35,409 nucleotides of DNA, from contig JALOQH010000001.1 of NCBI GenBank assembly GCA_025453475.1, forward strand, positions 1 through 35,409, written 5' to 3'. The notes below the pieces were generated by a model. The model was not told where the DNA came from and did not search any database. It was given only the letters and a program-made list of their open reading frames with translations. Positions 15,863-27,000 of the stretch are shown here, piece by piece. Both the position numbers and the translations under genes were made by a program. The stretch comes from an archaeon. Its GTDB lineage: Archaea; Nanobdellota; Nanobdellia; Pacearchaeales; GW2011-AR1. How positions within the stretch are numbered: the stretch's first letter is position 1; each line of letters opens with the position of its first letter.

Positions 15863-16330
15863 ATGACTCAAAGAATTGGGAAAAGGGGTATCTCTCCGGT
15901 TATTGCGACAGTGCTTTTGATATCCCTTGTGCTGATACTTGCAATTATAATCTATATGTGGGCAAGAGCATTTCTTCCAGAGCTGCTGCAAAAAGACCTC
16001 GGCAATGGACCTGAACCAATAGAGCGCGCCTGCGAGGCGGCAGTTTTTAATGCTGCCTATGATGTTGAGCAGGTTAGTGTAAGCAATGACGGGAATGTTC
16101 CTATATACGGTTTTGAGATATTGGTGAATGATGCTGCGACAGGTTCAATCATGTCCCTGGGCAGCTTTAACAAAACCATAAGAACCGGCGAGTCTACCAG
16201 TTTTGAGGTTGGTTATGTGGAAACAGGCAGTGAGATTACAATTATCCCTTCGTTAATCGGCGAGAATGAAGACGGCGAAAAAAAGTCCTATGTCTGCGGG
16301 GAAGATTATGCTCTCAGCGTAATTGTTTAA
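15863..16330 (+). CDS. archaeal type IV pilin-like protein (class III signal peptide, KRG-ISPVIATV type)
   Basis: The N-terminus MTQRIGKRGISPVIATVLLISLVLILAIIIYMW matches the archaeal pilin N-terminal domain pattern (G-[VI]-SPVI + hydrophobic helix). Confidence 0.85.
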   Translation: MTQRIGKRGISPVIATVLLISLVLILAIIIYMWARAFLPELLQKDLGNGPEPIERACEAAVFNAAYDVEQVSVSNDGNVPIYGFEILVNDAATGSIMSLGSFNKTIRTGESTSFEVGYVETGSEITIIPSLIGENEDGEKKSYVCGEDYALSVIV

Positions 16331-16331
16331 G

Positions 16332-16871
16332 ATGAAAAGAAATAAAAGAGGAGTTTCTCCGGTTATTGCGACAGTATTTGTATTGATGCTTACTGTAAGC
16401 GCTGTTGCGCTTATTGCAGGATTCCTTGTTCCATTTGTAAAAAAAAGCCTCTATAAAAGCAGCGAGTGCGTAAATTACAAAGAGGTTTATAGTTTTGAAG
16501 AATCTTTGGGATATAACTGTGTCCAGAAAACAGAGGGATTGTATGCGATTTCGGTGAAGGCTAAGTTTGACAAAGAACTTCTTGGCGGTGTCGCCGGGTT
16601 CAGGGTTGTGTTCAAAAATGCAGACGGCACTTCCAAGGGAATAGAAGTAAAAAATGATACTTCTGCCTCAAACGAGCAGGGAGGAATAAGGCTGCTTGGC
16701 AGAGAAGGACTCAGGATTCCTGCCGCAGGGGAGACAATAACCTATGTTTACAGGGGGGCCAGCGGTGAAACATTTGCCTCTGCAGAAGTCTATCCTGTCT
16801 TGAATTCAGGCACCATCTGCGGAGAAAAGGACAGTATAGAATTAATACAGTGCAAAAATAGGATATCATAA
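16332..16871 (+). CDS. archaeal type IV pilin-like protein (second paralogue)
   Basis: The N-terminus is MKRNKRGVSPVIATVFVLMLTVSAVALIAGF. The ATG at 16332 lies 1 nt after the upstream stop; the track's 16323 start is TTG. Confidence 0.85.
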   Translation: MKRNKRGVSPVIATVFVLMLTVSAVALIAGFLVPFVKKSLYKSSECVNYKEVYSFEESLGYNCVQKTEGLYAISVKAKFDKELLGGVAGFRVVFKNADGTSKGIEVKNDTSASNEQGGIRLLGREGLRIPAAGETITYVYRGASGETFASAEVYPVLNSGTICGEKDSIELIQCKNRIS

Positions 16872-16872
16872 A

Positions 16873-24235: not shown

Positions 24236-24241
24236 GTTAGT

Positions 24242-24252
24242 TTTTTAAATAA
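24242..24252 (+). promoter_or_regulatory. putative TATA element, leaderless promoter of the 24271 gene
   Basis: TTTTTAAATAA is centred 24 nt upstream of the ATG at 24271. Confidence 0.5.
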
Positions 24253-24270
24253 CTCTTTATTAGTTAATTC

Positions 24271-27000
24271 ATGAGAAAAGAGGGGATTGCAGGAATCATC
24301 TTAATATCTTTGATTTTGTGCAGTTTTGGAGTTTTAGCGGCATTTAGCTACAAATCGGAAAATCTTGTTAGCGTGTACAGCGGCGGAGAGAGTATCGCCG
24401 GAACAATAAACATCAGTTTCTCCAATCAGGAAGCGCATTCCATGGTTACAAGCAATTTTAGAGGCAATATCACTCTCCTCGAGCTTCTTAAAAAGAATAA
24501 TTTCAGCGAGGGAAAAGAGTATAACTGCACCAGATTAAACTGCGAGATTGGCTATCAAAAGATAGAGGAGATCACATCTGAAGGGATTGATTTGGAAGGG
24601 GATCCTGTAGTTATTGGATTTGAAATAAAGACTAACGGTGAACTTCTAGAGGATTTGTCAAGATTAAAGCTGTCAATTACCAGTGATGCTGGAAAATCCT
24701 GCGATAGACAAATATCCGTGGATATTCTTGAAAGAGGCGAGGTGATTATGCAAAACAGCAGAAATTCCGGGGAGCTTTGCGGCAGCGAAGAAACCGGATG
24801 TTTTGATTCTGATGCGTCTAGCGCTTGGGCTGATCTCGGGTCAAACCTTTATTGCGAGAACATGACTCTGCCTGCTGCGCCAGCCTTTAAGATTGGGGCT
24901 AATTTAAAAAATGGCACAGCAAATGCCAATATCAAAATGGGGCTGTACGATTTTGAGGGCAATAGTCTTGGAGAATGCACACTTCCCAAAAACAATGAAA
25001 GCATCCAAAAGATTGGATGCACCATAAACTATTCGTTGAGCGAGGAGAGGAGCTTATTTGTCTGCGCATCCTCTGATAACGAAGATGCAGGGTATGGCGT
25101 AAGAGTAGAGCAGGAAAGCCCGAACTGCGGGACAAGTGTGCAGGGGCCTCCGTTCAACAAGGATTATGACTTTTTTGCACGGCCCCTCAAGTTTGATTCT
25201 GTCGGGGTTATGGATATAAATGAAACAACATTTGGAACAGCATATTACGGCGAGAGTCTTGCAGCTTATGCATTCAACTATATCACTCAGAATTACGAGA
25301 ATAACTGTTCAAAGGGATGCGTTGTGCCATTCAAGATAAGCGGCATTGCACAGCATCTTGATTTTGACAATGCCGAATTAAGATACAGCATCGGCGGGCA
25401 GAAGACAACCATTTCCGGATTGTATAAATTTGAAGAAAGAGATGCCCTTATCACAAGCCCGGTTTTAAGGATTGATATTGGAAAAGCAGAGTTTACAATC
25501 CCCGTAACTTCAAATGAAACTGAGCTGTATCTCTACCTGGACGATGAACCTATACTCGAAAGCCCGATTGATATTGAGATAACGCCGGGTTTTGATTTTG
25601 ATGTATTTCCAAAGACAGTTTTGTACGGGGTTAAAACATCATTCTCCGCCATAACCGGGGCAATAATTAATTCCTCTTCATGGAAATTTGGAGACGGCGA
25701 AGAAGATTTTGCTGAAGGAAAGACCATTTCTCACAGGTACACCACATACAATCCTGAGGGATATGCCATTGAAGTTGAACTCGAGAGAAGTGATGGTGTA
25801 ACTGCAAGACGAACATTCAACCTGGCTGTTGAAGGATTGAATGATTCTCTTAATGCAATTATCAAAGAGGATGAGAAGAAGCTTTCTGATATCAATGCAA
25901 AATTAGGCACATTAACTCCGGCGCTTTCAAAGGCTGTAAAAGATGAGATTGGATTTGACGGGATTAATCTTGCTATTTCATCTGCGAAGAACAGCCAGGG
26001 CAATCTGACAATGGATGAAGATTATCTTGTCCTGATTGAGAATCTCCTGGCTCTTTCTGTCCCAGAATCTGTTTCTGAAACAGAGTCGGGCAGTTCTCTG
26101 CCGTTAGTAATTGGCTTTGAAAGCATTGATGTCAGTCAAATCCTGGAAATCTCAGATGTCCAGATTGAATCCGAAGCAGAGCTTGAGAATCTAAAGAAGG
26201 CAATAGTTGTATGGTTTGAGAATAAATACGGCGCAGCTATAGACTACAAAATTATTTCGAGAACAGACGATTTTGGAAGCGAGCCGATTCTGACTTATAT
26301 TAAGATTAACCTGAATCCTAAGGCTGAGAGCAGCGGCGCATATCTGCTTTTGAATTATCCCAGCGAGAGCATTGGATTCCTTGGCAACTATTCTGAAAAA
26401 ACAACTTCTTCAGGCGTCTATATCCCCCTGGACGGCATAACCGCTGTTGAATTCACGATTATCGGAGAGGTAGACCCGAGCAATCTCGGAGTTTACATCT
26501 CACCTGAAGTAAGCCAGGTATATGAAGAGATTGGTGTTGCAGCTGGACCGGAATTCAGCTGGAAAAGATTCTTCCTTGGAATCTTTCTTCTGCTTATTGT
26601 AGCATTTGCAGTGTACATTGCGCTTCAGGAATGGTATAAGAAAAATTATGAAGCGCACCTCTTCAAGAACCAAAACGACCTTTACAATTCCCTGAATTTC
26701 ATCAGTAATTCGAGAAAGTCCAATGTAAAAGACTCAGAAATTAGGAAAAAACTGGAAAGTGCGGGATGGAGCGGCGAGCAGATAGAATACTCGTTCAAGA
26801 AAATAGACGGGAAGAGAACAGGAATGTATGAAATACCAGTACTCAGATTCTTCGAGAAGAGAAAAATAGAGAAAGAGCTTGCCAAGAGACAGCATCCGCA
26901 GATAGCAACAACCGCCTTATTGAAAAAAGAAGCGGGTTCCAAAGAACCGGCTAAAGAGCCAGAGCGAAAGGGATTCTTTTCAATTTTCAAAAAGAGATAG
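24271..27000 (+). CDS. 909-aa sequon-rich surface protein with one PKD-like domain, C-terminal TM anchor and about 120-aa cytoplasmic tail
   Basis: An N-terminal signal/anchor is present (GIAGIILISLILCSFGVLAA). The PKD pattern at 25591..25830 is SWKFGDGEEDFAEGKTISHRYTTYNPEGYAIEVELERSDG. The TM helix at about 26569..26625 is FFLGIFLLLIVAFAVYIAL. The tail contains DSEIRKKLESAGWSGEQIEYSFKKI. There are many N-x-S/T sequons. Confidence 0.85.
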   Translation: MRKEGIAGIILISLILCSFGVLAAFSYKSENLVSVYSGGESIAGTINISFSNQEAHSMVTSNFRGNITLLELLKKNNFSEGKEYNCTRLNCEIGYQKIEEITSEGIDLEGDPVVIGFEIKTNGELLEDLSRLKLSITSDAGKSCDRQISVDILERGEVIMQNSRNSGELCGSEETGCFDSDASSAWADLGSNLYCENMTLPAAPAFKIGANLKNGTANANIKMGLYDFEGNSLGECTLPKNNESIQKIGCTINYSLSEERSLFVCASSDNEDAGYGVRVEQESPNCGTSVQGPPFNKDYDFFARPLKFDSVGVMDINETTFGTAYYGESLAAYAFNYITQNYENNCSKGCVVPFKISGIAQHLDFDNAELRYSIGGQKTTISGLYKFEERDALITSPVLRIDIGKAEFTIPVTSNETELYLYLDDEPILESPIDIEITPGFDFDVFPKTVLYGVKTSFSAITGAIINSSSWKFGDGEEDFAEGKTISHRYTTYNPEGYAIEVELERSDGVTARRTFNLAVEGLNDSLNAIIKEDEKKLSDINAKLGTLTPALSKAVKDEIGFDGINLAISSAKNSQGNLTMDEDYLVLIENLLALSVPESVSETESGSSLPLVIGFESIDVSQILEISDVQIESEAELENLKKAIVVWFENKYGAAIDYKIISRTDDFGSEPILTYIKINLNPKAESSGAYLLLNYPSESIGFLGNYSEKTTSSGVYIPLDGITAVEFTIIGEVDPSNLGVYISPEVSQVYEEIGVAAGPEFSWKRFFLGIFLLLIVAFAVYIALQEWYKKNYEAHLFKNQNDLYNSLNFISNSRKSNVKDSEIRKKLESAGWSGEQIEYSFKKIDGKRTGMYEIPVLRFFEKRKIEKELAKRQHPQIATTALLKKEAGSKEPAKEPERKGFFSIFKKR

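What the first reader, a model, noticed from the sequence alone, without database searches (positions are those of the whole stretch)
15863..27000. Type IV pilus-like locus combining two pilin signal classes, a split platform and two orphan anchored surface proteins: a candidate host-attachment apparatus
What the sequence shows:
- The ORFs at 15863 and 16332 begin ..KRG-(I/V)SPVIATV followed by a hydrophobic helix, which is the archaeal pilin N-domain type.
- The ORFs at 16873, 22091 and 22789 begin MKKG-(Q/L/W)xxx(x)E followed by a hydrophobic helix, which is the QxSxExxxL-like class III signal with Glu at +5/+6.
- The ORF at 17440 is a FlaI/PilB-type ATPase. The ORFs at 19155 and 20398 each carry one T2SS-F domain.
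- There is no FlaH/KaiC and no FlaF/G/C/D/E, so this is not an archaellum.
- Immediately downstream, each behind its own leaderless-type promoter, lie two orphan proteins (23261 and 24271). Both have a signal peptide, are sequon- and Cys-rich and carry a C-terminal TM anchor.
- No A24 prepilin peptidase (PibD/FlaK/EppA) is present in the window, although two signal classes would need processing.

Inference: in a reduced, probably episymbiotic archaeon, this looks like an adhesion pilus encoded together with lineage-specific adhesins. The accessory genes have no recognisable family.
Basis: partly seen in the sequence, partly recalled or inferred. Interest (0 to 1): 0.7.

Follow-up and report, generated by a model that had tools for sequence, protein, structure and literature searches.

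The report
Conserved DPANN pilus operon plus neighbours
This is a type IV pilus gene cluster found across hundreds of tiny Pacearchaeota-like archaea, probably used to stick to other cells; the two "orphan" surface proteins beside it are a separate conserved pair that is tied most tightly to the neighbouring vesicle-forming GTPase genes rather than to the pilus.

Summary
The sequence features are real. There are two archaeal-type pilins, three pilin-like proteins with a conserved Glu at +5/+6, a FlaI/GspE-type ATPase and a FlaJ/TadC platform split into two genes. There are no archaellum-specific genes and no A24 peptidase in the window.

The locus is not unusual. The same nine-gene operon occurs in at least 80 species-level Pacearchaeota/Woesearchaeota genomes (564 ATPase relatives). 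Split platforms and pilus loci flanked by anchored Cys-rich surface proteins are already described for archaea.

Some E5a homologues carry grafted lectin, beta-helix or Ig modules, which supports an adhesive pilus.

ORFs 23261 and 24271 are not orphans. In 909-seeded loci, 24271 homologues lie directly upstream of the ArvA-type GTPase–OapB–OapC cluster in 68 of 69 cases. Pilus genes lie at variable distance, often behind housekeeping inserts, and are absent within 10 kb in five loci. The most conserved part of 24271 is its cytoplasmic domain.

Verdict: an ordinary but undescribed member of archaeal type IV pili, next to a separate surface-protein/ArvABC module.

The parts
15834..15841 (+). TATA-like box (TTTTTAAA) starting 29 nt upstream of the pilA1 ATG; leaderless-type promoter of the first pilus transcription unit
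15863..16330 (+). pilA1: archaeal-type pilin (KRG|ISPVIATV followed by a TM helix and a globular C-terminal domain with 2 Cys); candidate major pilin
   Evidence: TIGR02537 33 bits (cutoff 20) and weak UpsA similarity; sub-threshold Pilin_N; found in 70 of 83 loci; paralogue of pilA2, hhalign probability 99.2%
16332..16871 (+). pilA2: second archaeal-type pilin (KRG|VSPVIATV), paralogue of pilA1. The longest ORF starts at TTG 16323; ATG 16332 is the likely start
   Evidence: TIGR02537 23 bits; orthologue N-termini; hhalign
16873..17400 (+). E5a: pilin-like protein with MKKG|QVWIETVLYTLIGL (Q+1, W+3, E+5 invariant or nearly so); candidate minor pilin or pseudopilin. Some homologues elsewhere carry C-terminal lectin, beta-helix or Ig modules
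   Evidence: JGI names many members 'pseudopilin PulG'; 913 representative clusters; modules
17440..18966 (+). Assembly ATPase of the FlaI/GspE/VirB11 superfamily
   Evidence: T2SSE 102 bits; FlaI model 403 bits, below the 550 cutoff; closest PDB entry 2OAP, A. fulgidus GspE, 373 bits, ahead of FlaI 282 and CpaF 161; 64-88% identical in 83 loci
18968..18975 (+). TATA-like box (TATTTAAA) at -29 of the s53 ATG; promoter of the s53-platform unit
   Evidence: a 40-90 aa ORF lies in this gap in 70 of 78 loci, about 66 of them with a shared consensus sequence and nearly all with the 4-nt overlap; called as a gene in L001-L003
19155..20396 (+). Platform protein, N-terminal half (one T2SSF domain), with a cytoplasmic N-terminal extension of about 165 aa
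   Evidence: T2SSF 55 bits; aligns to ArlJ/FlaJ positions 5-246 of 555
20398..21252 (+). Platform protein, C-terminal half (one T2SSF domain)
   Evidence: T2SSF 63 bits; aligns to ArlJ/FlaJ positions 265-536 of 555
21245..22012 (-). FmrO-like rRNA methyltransferase on the opposite strand; a lineage-specific insertion, not a pilus component
   Evidence: PF07091 51.5 bits; present in 40 of 83 loci and absent from the more distant ones, where E5b directly follows the platform
22062..22069 (+). TATA-like box (TATAAAAA) at -29 of the E5b ATG
22091..22795 (+). E5b: pilin-like protein, MKKKG|LSNIEF (family consensus [KR]G|xx(H/N)(I/V)E); candidate minor pilin
   Evidence: no Pfam or NCBIfam family
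22789..23211 (+). E6c: pilin-like protein, MVNKKG|WLRIVEA (Glu at +6); last gene of the pilus operon proper
   Evidence: in distant loci it is followed by housekeeping genes
23232..23239 (+). TATA-like box (TTTATAAA) at -29 of the 23261 ATG
23261..24235 (+). NAH-repeat surface protein. It has a Sec-type signal peptide, three repeats of about 45 aa (LSxxTNAHxx...Y..VC), a Cys-rich C-terminal domain, then an LPFFGxWQ motif, a TM helix and a basic tail
   Evidence: AF2 pLDDT 66, with 80-90 in the N-terminal domain; no PDB fold match
24242..24250 (+). TATA-like box (TTTTTAAAT) at -29 of the 24271 ATG
24271..27000 (+). 909-aa single-pass membrane protein. It has a signal peptide, a multi-beta-sandwich ectodomain with one PKD domain (about 441-520), a helical bundle, an alpha/beta domain, a TM helix (about 764-786) and a conserved cytoplasmic helical domain (787-875)
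   Evidence: directly upstream of the ArvA-like GTPase in 68 of 69 independent loci
27036..28712 (+). ArvA-like small GTPase (27036-27674), a 68-aa two-TM ORF (27676-27882), OapB/ArvB (27884-28273) and OapC/ArvC (28293-28712).
   Evidence: Pfam MMR_HSR1, OapB and OapC above their cutoffs; literature on ArvABC; adjacency statistics

Best explanation
The region holds two adjacent but separable modules.

Module 1 (15863-23211) is a nine-gene type IV pilus (TFF) operon set. It is conserved across Pacearchaeota- and Woesearchaeota-like DPANN archaea.
- pilA1 and pilA2 are archaeal-type pilins that would form the filament.
- E5a, E5b and E6c are three pilin-like proteins with a class III-type N-terminus and a conserved Glu at +5/+6. 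I infer that they act as minor pilins, priming or capping the fibre. Grafted lectin and adhesin modules in some E5a homologues fit this.
- The FlaI/GspE-type ATPase, a 53-aa cytoplasmic helper and a FlaJ/TadC platform encoded as two half-genes would assemble the fibre.
- The prepilin peptidase is encoded elsewhere in the genome.
- The most likely function is adhesion to host cells or surfaces.

Module 2 (23261-27000) is a pair of lineage-specific surface proteins, each with its own leaderless-type promoter. They sit between the pilus operon and the arvA-arvB-arvC (OapABC) vesiculation GTPase cluster. The 909-aa protein has an adhesin-like beta-sandwich/PKD ectodomain and a more strongly conserved cytoplasmic domain, so it probably links an external contact to an intracellular partner.

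Shown: gene content, motifs, conservation and synteny statistics. Inferred: the filament/minor-pilin roles, adhesion, and any coupling between the modules.
For: - Domain assignments.
- The operon order pilA1-pilA2-E5a-ATPase-(s53)-Fn-Fc-E5b-E6c is conserved in 83 loci with ATPase identity of 64-88%.
- The N-terminal motifs are family-specific and conserved.
- pilA1 and pilA2 are paralogues. The E5 proteins share only the N-terminal helix with the pilins.
- JGI labels E5a homologues 'pseudopilin PulG'.
- E5a homologues carry Laminin_G_3 (E about 1e-22), beta-helix/NosD and Big_7 modules.
- Woesearchaeota 'archaellin type IV' genes are among the top-expressed genes and were proposed to mediate host attachment. 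Pacearchaeota appear strongly host-attached.
- In distant loci the operon ends at E6c and is followed by archease, RtcB or other housekeeping genes.
- Module 2 statistics: NAH-to-909 adjacency in 19 of 23 loci and 909-to-GTPase adjacency in 21 of 21 ATPase-seeded loci. In 909-seeded loci the GTPase is directly downstream in 68 of 69 and an NAH protein is within 4 kb in 50 of 59.
- The 909 model has pLDDT 84.6, with a PKD domain and beta-sandwich domains.
- The cytoplasmic domain has column identity 0.66 against 0.45-0.50 for the ectodomain.
- Separate TATA boxes lie at -29.
Against: - There is no experimental or expression data for this lineage's locus.
- The E+5 proteins match no curated pilin family. 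Their cleavage by an A24 peptidase is inferred from motif alone.
- No A24 peptidase lies within 10 kb of the ATPase in any of the 88 loci.
- Which pilin is the major one is not established.
- Pilus genes lie within 9 kb upstream of the 909 homologue in 28 of 34 independent loci. E6c and the NAH gene overlap in some genomes. A functional link between the modules therefore cannot be excluded.
- The 23261 model is only moderately confident and has no fold match, so calling it an adhesin is a guess.
Confidence: 0.7

Rival explanations
1. One reading: one integrated host-attachment apparatus. The pilus and the two anchored surface proteins would be co-evolving parts of a single adhesion system, for example with the pilus bringing cells together and 23261/24271 acting as dedicated adhesins or pilus-base components.
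For: - Same strand, short gaps, and a conserved order with the pilus operon upstream in 28 of 34 independent 909-seeded loci.
- In ATPase-seeded loci, 34 of 43 have NAH/909 within 6.5 kb.
- E6c and the NAH gene overlap by 12-16 nt in some genomes.
- Other Cys-rich secreted proteins are inserted inside pilus loci in L012, L025, L037 and L080.
- Archaeal T4P loci with an anchored Cys-rich protein and a large adhesin have precedent.
Against: - Housekeeping genes (archease, RtcB) are commonly inserted between E6c and the pair.
- Nine pilus loci show no NAH/909 in 4-6.5 kb of downstream sequence.
- Five 909 loci have no pilus genes within 10 kb.
- Non-pilus neighbours (SNase, TrxR, CCA, TrmB, SPP) are equally syntenic, so collinearity alone is weak evidence.
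- 23261 and 24271 have their own promoters in this window.
- No PilY1-like or DUF2341 domain was found in 24271.
Confidence: 0.2
2. The 909-aa protein, perhaps together with the NAH protein, is a membrane partner of the ArvA/ArvB/ArvC small-GTPase vesiculation system. Its ectodomain would mark a membrane site or cargo, and its conserved cytoplasmic domain would recruit or be recognised by ArvA. The pilus operon would simply be a chromosomal neighbour.
For: - The 909-to-GTPase junction is conserved in 68 of 69 independent loci and in 21 of 21 ATPase-seeded loci. Gaps are as short as 6-7 bp.
- The junction persists where the pilus operon is absent.
- The cytoplasmic domain is the most conserved part of the protein.
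- ArvA drives extracellular vesicle formation in Haloferax, and homologues occur in seven DPANN phyla.
- The window's GTPase starts with an amphipathic-looking N-terminus (MIRILKNFARRMLNAIFKRRG), as reported for ArvA.
Against: - Adjacency in very compact, highly syntenic genomes is not proof of function.
- arvA has its own TATA box in this window.
- No such upstream membrane partner is reported for Haloferax arvA.
- ArvA function has not been tested in any DPANN archaeon.
Confidence: 0.25
3. The pilus functions mainly in DNA uptake or nucleotide scavenging rather than adhesion. It would act as a competence-type pilus working with the nearby secreted SNase-LTD nuclease, feeding an organism that cannot make nucleotides.
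For: - A secreted SNase+LTD nuclease gene (14033-14788, minus strand) lies 1 kb upstream and is syntenic in 26 loci.
- Type IV-like pili genes were reported as essential for natural transformation in Methanococcus maripaludis (paper listed; I did not read it in detail).
- Type IV pilin-like and competence genes are linked to eDNA uptake in ultra-small prokaryotes.
Against: - The nuclease linkage is lost in more distant loci (ATPase below about 72% identity) while the pilus operon persists.
- No ComEC- or DprA-like gene lies in the window.
- The lectin, Ig and beta-helix modules on E5a homologues point to binding of surfaces or glycans.
- The two functions are not mutually exclusive.
Confidence: 0.15

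Closest known systems
Euryarchaeal clade 2 type IV pili (Makarova et al. 2016), the group I take to include the A. fulgidus GspE-type ATPase 2OAP and the Haloferax PilB/PilC systems (that placement is from my own knowledge, not from a tool result)
   Same: - The ATPase is closest to 2OAP (373 bits).
- Archaeal PilA-like pilins with a [KR]G|xSPV N-terminus.
- Additional minor pilin-like genes in the operon.
- Many clade 2 loci have two tadC-like genes.
- An associated C-terminally anchored surface protein and adhesin are part of published models.
   Different: - The three accessory pilin-like proteins have a conserved Glu at +5/+6 and match no arCOG-derived Pfam or NCBIfam family that I could test.
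- There is a conserved 53-aa cytoplasmic gene.
- No FleN/MinD gene lies in the window.
- I did not run an ATPase phylogeny, so clade assignment is by best hit only.
Epd pilus / 'System 1' TFF of Methanococcus, Thermococcales and some DPANN archaea (Nair et al.; Sivabalasarma and Albers 2026 preprint)
   Same: - Two platform genes and one ATPase.
- Several pilin-like proteins.
- E5a has Q at +1 and E at +5. From my own knowledge this matches the QxSxExxxL-type EppA substrates.
- Adhesive function.
   Different: - No 9-TM EppA gene in the locus.
- The candidate major pilins are 155-180 aa with globular domains, not the roughly 70-aa Epd or Flp-like pilin.
- Pfam Class_IIIsignal does not hit.
- The ATPase scores far better against 2OAP and FlaI than against the Tad ATPase CpaF.
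Subsystem 4A TFF in Thermoproteota and some Nanoarchaeota (2026 preprint)
   Same: [quoted passage not shown]
   Different: The defining 4A/4B adhesin is remotely PilY-like. 24271 shows no PilY1 or DUF2341 similarity by Pfam, PDB sequence search or Foldseek. Pilin arCOGs could not be tested.
Bacterial type II secretion pseudopilins and modular type IV minor pilins (such as Streptococcus sanguinis PilB/PilC, recalled from my own knowledge)
   Same: - A G|xxxxE N-terminus followed by a hydrophobic helix.
- An automated 'PulG' label from JGI.
- Homologues with lectin or adhesin modules grafted onto the pilin C-terminus.
- Weak profile similarity to bacterial pilin N-helices, E 0.07-0.3.
   Different: - Archaeal host, with an archaeal ATPase and platform.
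- No N_methyl Pfam hit.
- The globular parts have no detectable similarity to bacterial pseudopilins.
- The resemblance may be convergent.
ArvA/ArvB/ArvC (OapABC) archaeal vesiculation GTPase system (Mills et al. 2024)
   Same: The genes at 27036-28712 form the canonical trio of small GTPase, OapB and OapC. The system is reported in Nanoarchaeota.
   Different: A conserved 850-930 aa single-pass membrane protein immediately upstream of arvA is not described for the Haloferax operon in the text I read. A 68-aa two-TM ORF is inserted between arvA and arvB in this window only.

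Membership tests
Archaeal type IV pilus / TFF system (generic) | VirB11/FlaI-family secretion ATPase | tested here: met
   PF00437 102 bits; 2OAP 373 bits and FlaI 282 bits
Archaeal type IV pilus / TFF system (generic) | FlaJ/TadC polytopic platform protein | tested here: met
   Two genes with one T2SSF domain each, covering the N and C halves of ArlJ
Archaeal type IV pilus / TFF system (generic) | Filament protein(s) with a class III signal peptide | tested here: met
   pilA1 and pilA2 hit TIGR02537 above its cutoff. For E5a, E5b and E6c there is only motif-level evidence: [KR][GA] followed by a hydrophobic helix, conserved in 57-71 orthologues
Archaeal type IV pilus / TFF system (generic) | A24 class III signal peptidase (PibD/FlaK/EppA) in the genome | not testable with these tools
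   Absent from the window and from within 10 kb of the ATPase in 88 loci. The rest of the genome is not available. The literature annotates flaK in most Woesearchaeota MAGs
Archaellum | FlaH (KaiC-like), FlaF/FlaG and FlaC/D/E or FlaX accessory genes | tested here: not met
   No such Pfam or NCBIfam hits among the window ORFs. The FlaI model scores 403 bits, below its 550 cutoff
Epd pilus / System 1 | Two platform genes plus one ATPase | tested here: met
Epd pilus / System 1 | Dedicated 9-TM EppA peptidase in the gene context | tested here: not met
   No A24-like ORF in any locus. The only nearby 9-TM GxGD protein is a presenilin-type SPP, PF06550
Epd pilus / System 1 | Short major pilin (about 70 aa) lacking a globular domain | tested here: not met
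   pilA1 is 155 aa and pilA2 about 179 aa, both with C-terminal domains. Stand-alone short pilins elsewhere in the genome cannot be excluded
Epd pilus / System 1 | ATPase in clade 1 of the archaeal secretion ATPase tree | tested here: inconclusive
   I made no tree. Best hits are 2OAP and FlaI rather than the Tad ATPase CpaF, which argues against clade 1
Pfam Class_IIIsignal (PF04021, QxSxExxxL) | Match to the family HMM | tested here: not met
   No hit at E up to 1 for 16873, 22091 or 22789, nor for 23 E5a orthologues. Only the Q+1/E+5 pattern is shared
Subsystem 4A/4B TFF | PilY-like adhesin downstream of the platform genes | tested here: not met
   The 24271 model (pLDDT 84.6) matches PKD and generic beta-sandwich proteins only. 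23261 has no fold match
ArvABC / OapABC cluster | Small GTPase followed by OapB (PF09846) and OapC (PF09845) | tested here: met
   MMR_HSR1 60 bits, OapB 59 bits and OapC 64 bits, all above their cutoffs. The order is conserved in 68 of 69 loci
Archaeosortase-type C-terminal sorting signal (PGF-CTERM and relatives), for 23261 | Match to a sorting-signal HMM and presence of an archaeosortase gene | tested here: not met
   The tripartite LPFFGxWQ motif, TM helix and basic tail are conserved in most full-length NAH proteins, 13 of 31 under a strict P-x-F-[GA] pattern and more with variants. No NCBIfam hit and no archaeosortase in the window. This is a resemblance only

The most novel reading that the evidence does not exclude
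In Pacearchaeota-like DPANN archaea, a conserved chromosomal arrangement places three things in order. First comes a type IV pilus with lectin-bearing minor pilins. Next comes a pair of contact-surface proteins (the NAH protein and the 909-aa protein). Last comes the ArvABC membrane-remodelling GTPase system.

In this reading the 909-aa protein is a previously unrecognised transmembrane partner of ArvA. Its conserved cytoplasmic domain would recruit the GTPase to sites where its ectodomain engages a host cell. Attachment would then be coupled to vesicle or membrane-bridge formation, which is the unexplained step in how episymbiotic archaea obtain host material.
Probability: 0.15. Interest if true: 0.8.

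Novelty: new member of a known kind. Interest (0 to 1): 0.4.

Why it matters
Pacearchaeota and Woesearchaeota are abundant, uncultured and apparently host-attached archaea with minimal metabolism. How they attach is unknown. One genome-resolved study even stated that type IV pili are missing from DPANN genomes.

This work shows that one well-defined nine-gene pilus operon is present in hundreds of these genomes. Some homologues of its E5a pilin-like component carry lectin or adhesin modules. That gives a concrete, testable candidate for the attachment organelle.

It also shows that these genes should not be read as an archaellum, which is how KEGG-style pipelines annotate them.

Separately, the near-absolute adjacency of a large single-pass membrane protein to arvA gives the ArvABC vesiculation field a candidate membrane partner to test. 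For the finding as written, the main value is corrective.

Tried and rejected
1. I guessed from the three repeats of about 45 aa that the 23261 N-terminal domain is a beta-trefoil lectin. Foldseek against the PDB gave no match (best E 1.6), so I dropped this.
2. I tested whether 24271 is the PilY-like adhesin of subsystem 4A. Only PKD and generic beta-sandwich matches appeared, so I rejected it.
3. I tested Pfam Class_IIIsignal and N_methyl membership for the E+5 proteins and found no hits.
4. I searched for an A24 peptidase in the window and in all fetched flanks using a GxGD[VIL]K multi-TM filter. None was found. The only GxGD protease is a presenilin-type SPP, which has no PDB sequence relative. 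The idea that SPP substitutes for A24 is untested and unlikely, given the flaK annotations in Woesearchaeota.
5. The L012 '909-like' ORF directly after the platform gene looked like evidence for pilus linkage. It scores only 26 bits against the 909 HMM and has 62 Cys, so it belongs to a different Cys-rich family.
6. I discounted it because unrelated neighbours are equally collinear.
7. The sigma-70 promoter and intrinsic terminator scan was uninformative for an archaeon: 20 sites found against 23 expected.
8. The tRNA and Rfam scans of the window found nothing.
9. The E5a profile against PDB sequences gave only weak similarity to pilin N-helices.

Full report
**What is there**

The window is a complete 35.4-kb MAG contig that NCBI labels only "archaeon". 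It carries a ribosomal-protein operon, PCNA, primase, FttA, a proteasome subunit and TrmB. It contains no tRNA and no Rfam match.

- ORFs 15863 and 16332 hit the archaellin/type IV pilin N-terminal model TIGR02537 above its cutoff. Profile comparison shows they are paralogues over their full length (99.2%).
- ORF 17440 is a FlaI/GspE-type ATPase. Its closest solved relative is A. fulgidus GspE (2OAP, 373 bits), ahead of FlaI (282) and the Tad ATPase CpaF (161).
- ORF 19155 aligns to positions 5-246 and ORF 20398 to positions 265-536 of the 555-residue ArlJ/FlaJ model. The platform is therefore truly split into halves.
- No FlaH, FlaF/G or FlaC/D/E was found, so the locus is not an archaellum.

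**The two pilin N-terminus types are real and conserved**

A scan of GTDB species representatives with the ATPase returned 564 confirmed relatives. The best 80 loci are all from Pacearchaeota, Woesearchaeota or Nanoarchaeota MAGs, apart from one contig labelled Paceibacterota and one labelled Aenigmarchaeum, and have 64-84% ATPase identity.

In these loci, plus three more found through 23261, the gene order pilA1-pilA2-E5a-ATPase-Fn-Fc-E5b-E6c is conserved. Each family keeps its own N-terminal signature across 57-71 orthologues:

| Family | N-terminal signature |
|---|---|
| pilA1, pilA2 | [KR]G\|xSPV(I/V)AT |
| E5a | [KR][GA]\|Q(V/I)W(V/I)ET..YTLIGL |
| E5b | [KR]G\|xx(H/N)(I/V)E |
| E6c | [KR][GA]\|Wx(R/K)I(V/I)EA |

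The E+5 proteins share only the N-terminal helix with each other and with the pilins. They match no Pfam or NCBIfam family, including Class_IIIsignal and N_methyl. JGI's pipeline nevertheless labels many E5a homologues "pseudopilin PulG".

The opposite-strand FmrO-like methyltransferase gene (21245-22012) is missing from the more distant loci. There E5b and E6c follow the platform directly. E5b and E6c are therefore integral to the operon, and the methyltransferase is a lineage-specific insertion.

An ORF of 40-90 aa lies between the ATPase and the platform in 70 of 78 loci. About 66 of these share a consensus sequence, and nearly all overlap the platform start by 4 nt.

**Function of the pilus**

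An exhaustive profile search finds 913 E5a representative clusters. At least eight of the top 150 have long C-terminal extensions. Of the eight I scanned, together with one further extended orthologue from locus L036, four gave specific hits. The modules are ConA-like Laminin_G_3 (two proteins, E about 1e-22), right-handed beta-helix (P0163, plus a NosD-type hit in the L036 orthologue) and Big_7 with an InlB B-repeat (one).

Grafting binding modules onto a pilin scaffold is what bacterial modular minor pilins do (my own knowledge). This supports E5a being an exposed pilus subunit and the pilus being adhesive.

The literature fits. Woesearchaeota "archaellin type IV" genes are among the most expressed genes and were proposed to serve host attachment. 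Pacearchaeota behave as strongly host-attached.

**How ordinary is it?**

- Two platform genes are the stated hallmark of System 1 (Epd), occur in subsystems 4A and 4B, and occur in many clade 2 loci.
- Archaeal T4P models already include a C-terminally anchored Cys-rich protein plus a large secreted "adhesin".
- The A24 peptidase is usually not in the pilus locus, except for EppA. flaK is annotated in most Woesearchaeota MAGs.

I found no paper describing this particular operon. One study even said T4P are missing in DPANN.

**The two "orphans"**

Neither protein is an orphan.

ORF 23261:
- It has three N-terminal repeats (LSxxTNAHxx...Y..VC), a Cys-rich C-terminal domain and a conserved LPFFGxWQ-TM-basic tail.
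- Its N-terminal domain heads proteins of 320-1100 aa in 38 of the 89 sources scanned.
- The AF2 model is confident only in the repeat domain and has no PDB fold match.

ORF 24271:
- It belongs to a family of proteins of 850-930 aa.
- The model (pLDDT 84.6) shows beta-sandwich domains including one PKD domain (profile E 6e-14). These are followed by a helical bundle, a TM helix and a cytoplasmic helical domain.
- The cytoplasmic domain is the most conserved part of the protein.

**Linkage test**

In ATPase-seeded loci with at least 3 kb of sequence beyond E6c (n=43), the position of the NAH/909 pair was as follows:

| Position of NAH/909 relative to E6c | Loci |
|---|---|
| Directly adjacent | 13 |
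| Within 3 kb | 13 |
| 3-6.5 kb away | 8 |
| Not in view | 9 |

Archease, RtcB and other housekeeping genes often intervene.

To remove seeding bias I scanned metagenomes with the 909 family and obtained 80 loci. The results:

| Feature relative to the 909 homologue | Count |
|---|---|
| ArvA-type GTPase directly downstream | 68 of 69 |
| NAH protein within 4 kb upstream | 50 of 59 |
| Pilus gene within 3 kb upstream | 22 of 49 |
| Pilus gene within 9 kb upstream | 28 of 34 |
| No pilus gene within 10 kb upstream | 5 |

In those five loci the upstream region holds Mre11/Rad50 or other giant Cys-rich proteins. The strongest association of 24271 is with arvA-arvB-arvC, the OapABC cluster shown to drive vesicle formation in Haloferax and reported in DPANN.

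Unrelated neighbours (SNase, TrxR, CCA, TrmB, SPP) are also collinear, so synteny alone is weak evidence of function.

**Promoters**

TATA-like octamers start exactly 29 or 28 nt upstream of the ATGs of pilA1, s53, E5b, 23261, 24271, arvA and the CCA enzyme. The motif occurs at 13 of 42 gene starts against 2.7% of random windows. It also implies that 23261 and 24271 are their own transcription units here.

**Conclusion**

The pilus part of the finding is correct. It is one instance of a widespread, coarsely known but undescribed DPANN type IV pilus operon, most likely adhesive. The "integrated apparatus with orphan adhesins" reading is not established. The two surface proteins form a separate conserved pair lying between the pilus operon and arvABC, and 24271 is bound most tightly to arvA. 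The most interesting open possibility is that 24271 is a transmembrane partner of the ArvABC system at host contact sites. My evidence allows this but does not demonstrate it.

Noticed in passing
window 18997-19158 (+): A conserved 53-aa ORF, predicted to be helical and cytoplasmic, lies between the ATPase and the first platform gene. A 40-90 aa ORF occupies this gap in 70 of 78 related loci, about 66 of them sharing a consensus sequence, and its end almost always overlaps the platform start codon by 4 nt. It matches no family.
   Followed up: partly
window 24271-28712 (+); loci L089-L168: The 909-aa membrane protein sits immediately upstream of an ArvA-like small GTPase, OapB and OapC in 68 of 69 independently seeded loci. 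Gaps are as short as 6-7 bp. Its cytoplasmic domain (787-875) is more conserved than its ectodomain. It is a possible unrecognised partner of the archaeal vesiculation system.
   Followed up: partly
window 27676-27882 (+): A 68-aa ORF with two predicted TM helices lies between the ArvA-like GTPase and OapB. It had no tblastn match in any of the 83 related loci, where OapB usually follows the GTPase directly.
   Followed up: no
window 21245-22012 (-): An FmrO-like 16S rRNA methyltransferase gene lies on the opposite strand in the middle of the pilus locus. It is conserved at that position in about 40 loci and absent from more distant relatives. This is an odd, stable insertion of a translation-related gene.
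   Followed up: partly
window 31203-32099 (-): A 9-TM presenilin-type signal peptide peptidase (PF06550, motif LGGGDVVFP) is syntenic with this region in several relatives. It is the only GxGD intramembrane protease anywhere near the pilus genes, and it has no PDB sequence relative.
   Followed up: partly
window 23261-24235, residues about 294-324; NAH proteins in other loci: A near-invariant LPFFGxWQ motif followed by a TM helix and a basic tail ends most full-length NAH-family proteins. The tripartite layout resembles exosortase/archaeosortase sorting signals, but no sorting-signal model hits and no sortase gene is nearby.
   Followed up: partly
window gene starts: 15834, 18968, 22062, 23232, 24242, 27008, 28717: TATA-like octamers begin at a fixed -29/-28 from the ATG of seven genes. 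This implies mostly leaderless mRNAs and allows transcription units to be read directly from the sequence.
   Followed up: yes
window 14033-14788 (-): A secreted staphylococcal-nuclease domain fused to a lamin-tail domain lies next to a thioredoxin-reductase-like gene, just upstream of the pilus operon. It is syntenic in 26 loci and is a candidate for extracellular nucleic-acid scavenging.
   Followed up: partly
window 9944-11794 (+): A 616-aa protein with a signal peptide, 28 Cys (4.5%), a TM helix and a proline-rich cytoplasmic tail. By eye it has repeated motifs reminiscent of alpha/alpha-toroid (prenyltransferase or terpene-cyclase-like) repeats. There was no Pfam hit at 1e-3. It is conserved upstream in 16 loci. 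Window 11833-12897 and 13372-14103 encode further signal-peptide, TM-anchored proteins, so such proteins flank the pilus on both sides.
   Followed up: no
L036:8335-9879; proteins P0163, P0202, P0204, P0210: E5a-family pilin-like proteins with C-terminal add-on modules: ConA-like lectin, right-handed beta-helix/NosD, and Big_7 Ig with an InlB repeat. These are archaeal 'modular pilins'.
   Followed up: yes
L100:1-13600: Here the thioredoxin-reductase gene is followed by only two pilin-like genes. After those come Mre11-Rad50, the NAH protein, the 909 homologue and arvA. The ATPase/platform machinery is absent from its usual place, which suggests the pilin genes and the machinery can be separated.
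   Followed up: no
L012:4472-7270, L025:15775-18087, L080:7615-9781, L037:13857-14372: Different, unrelated Cys-rich secreted proteins (up to 72 Cys) are inserted within or right after pilus loci in several genomes. The neighbourhood may be a hotspot for variable surface proteins.
   Followed up: no
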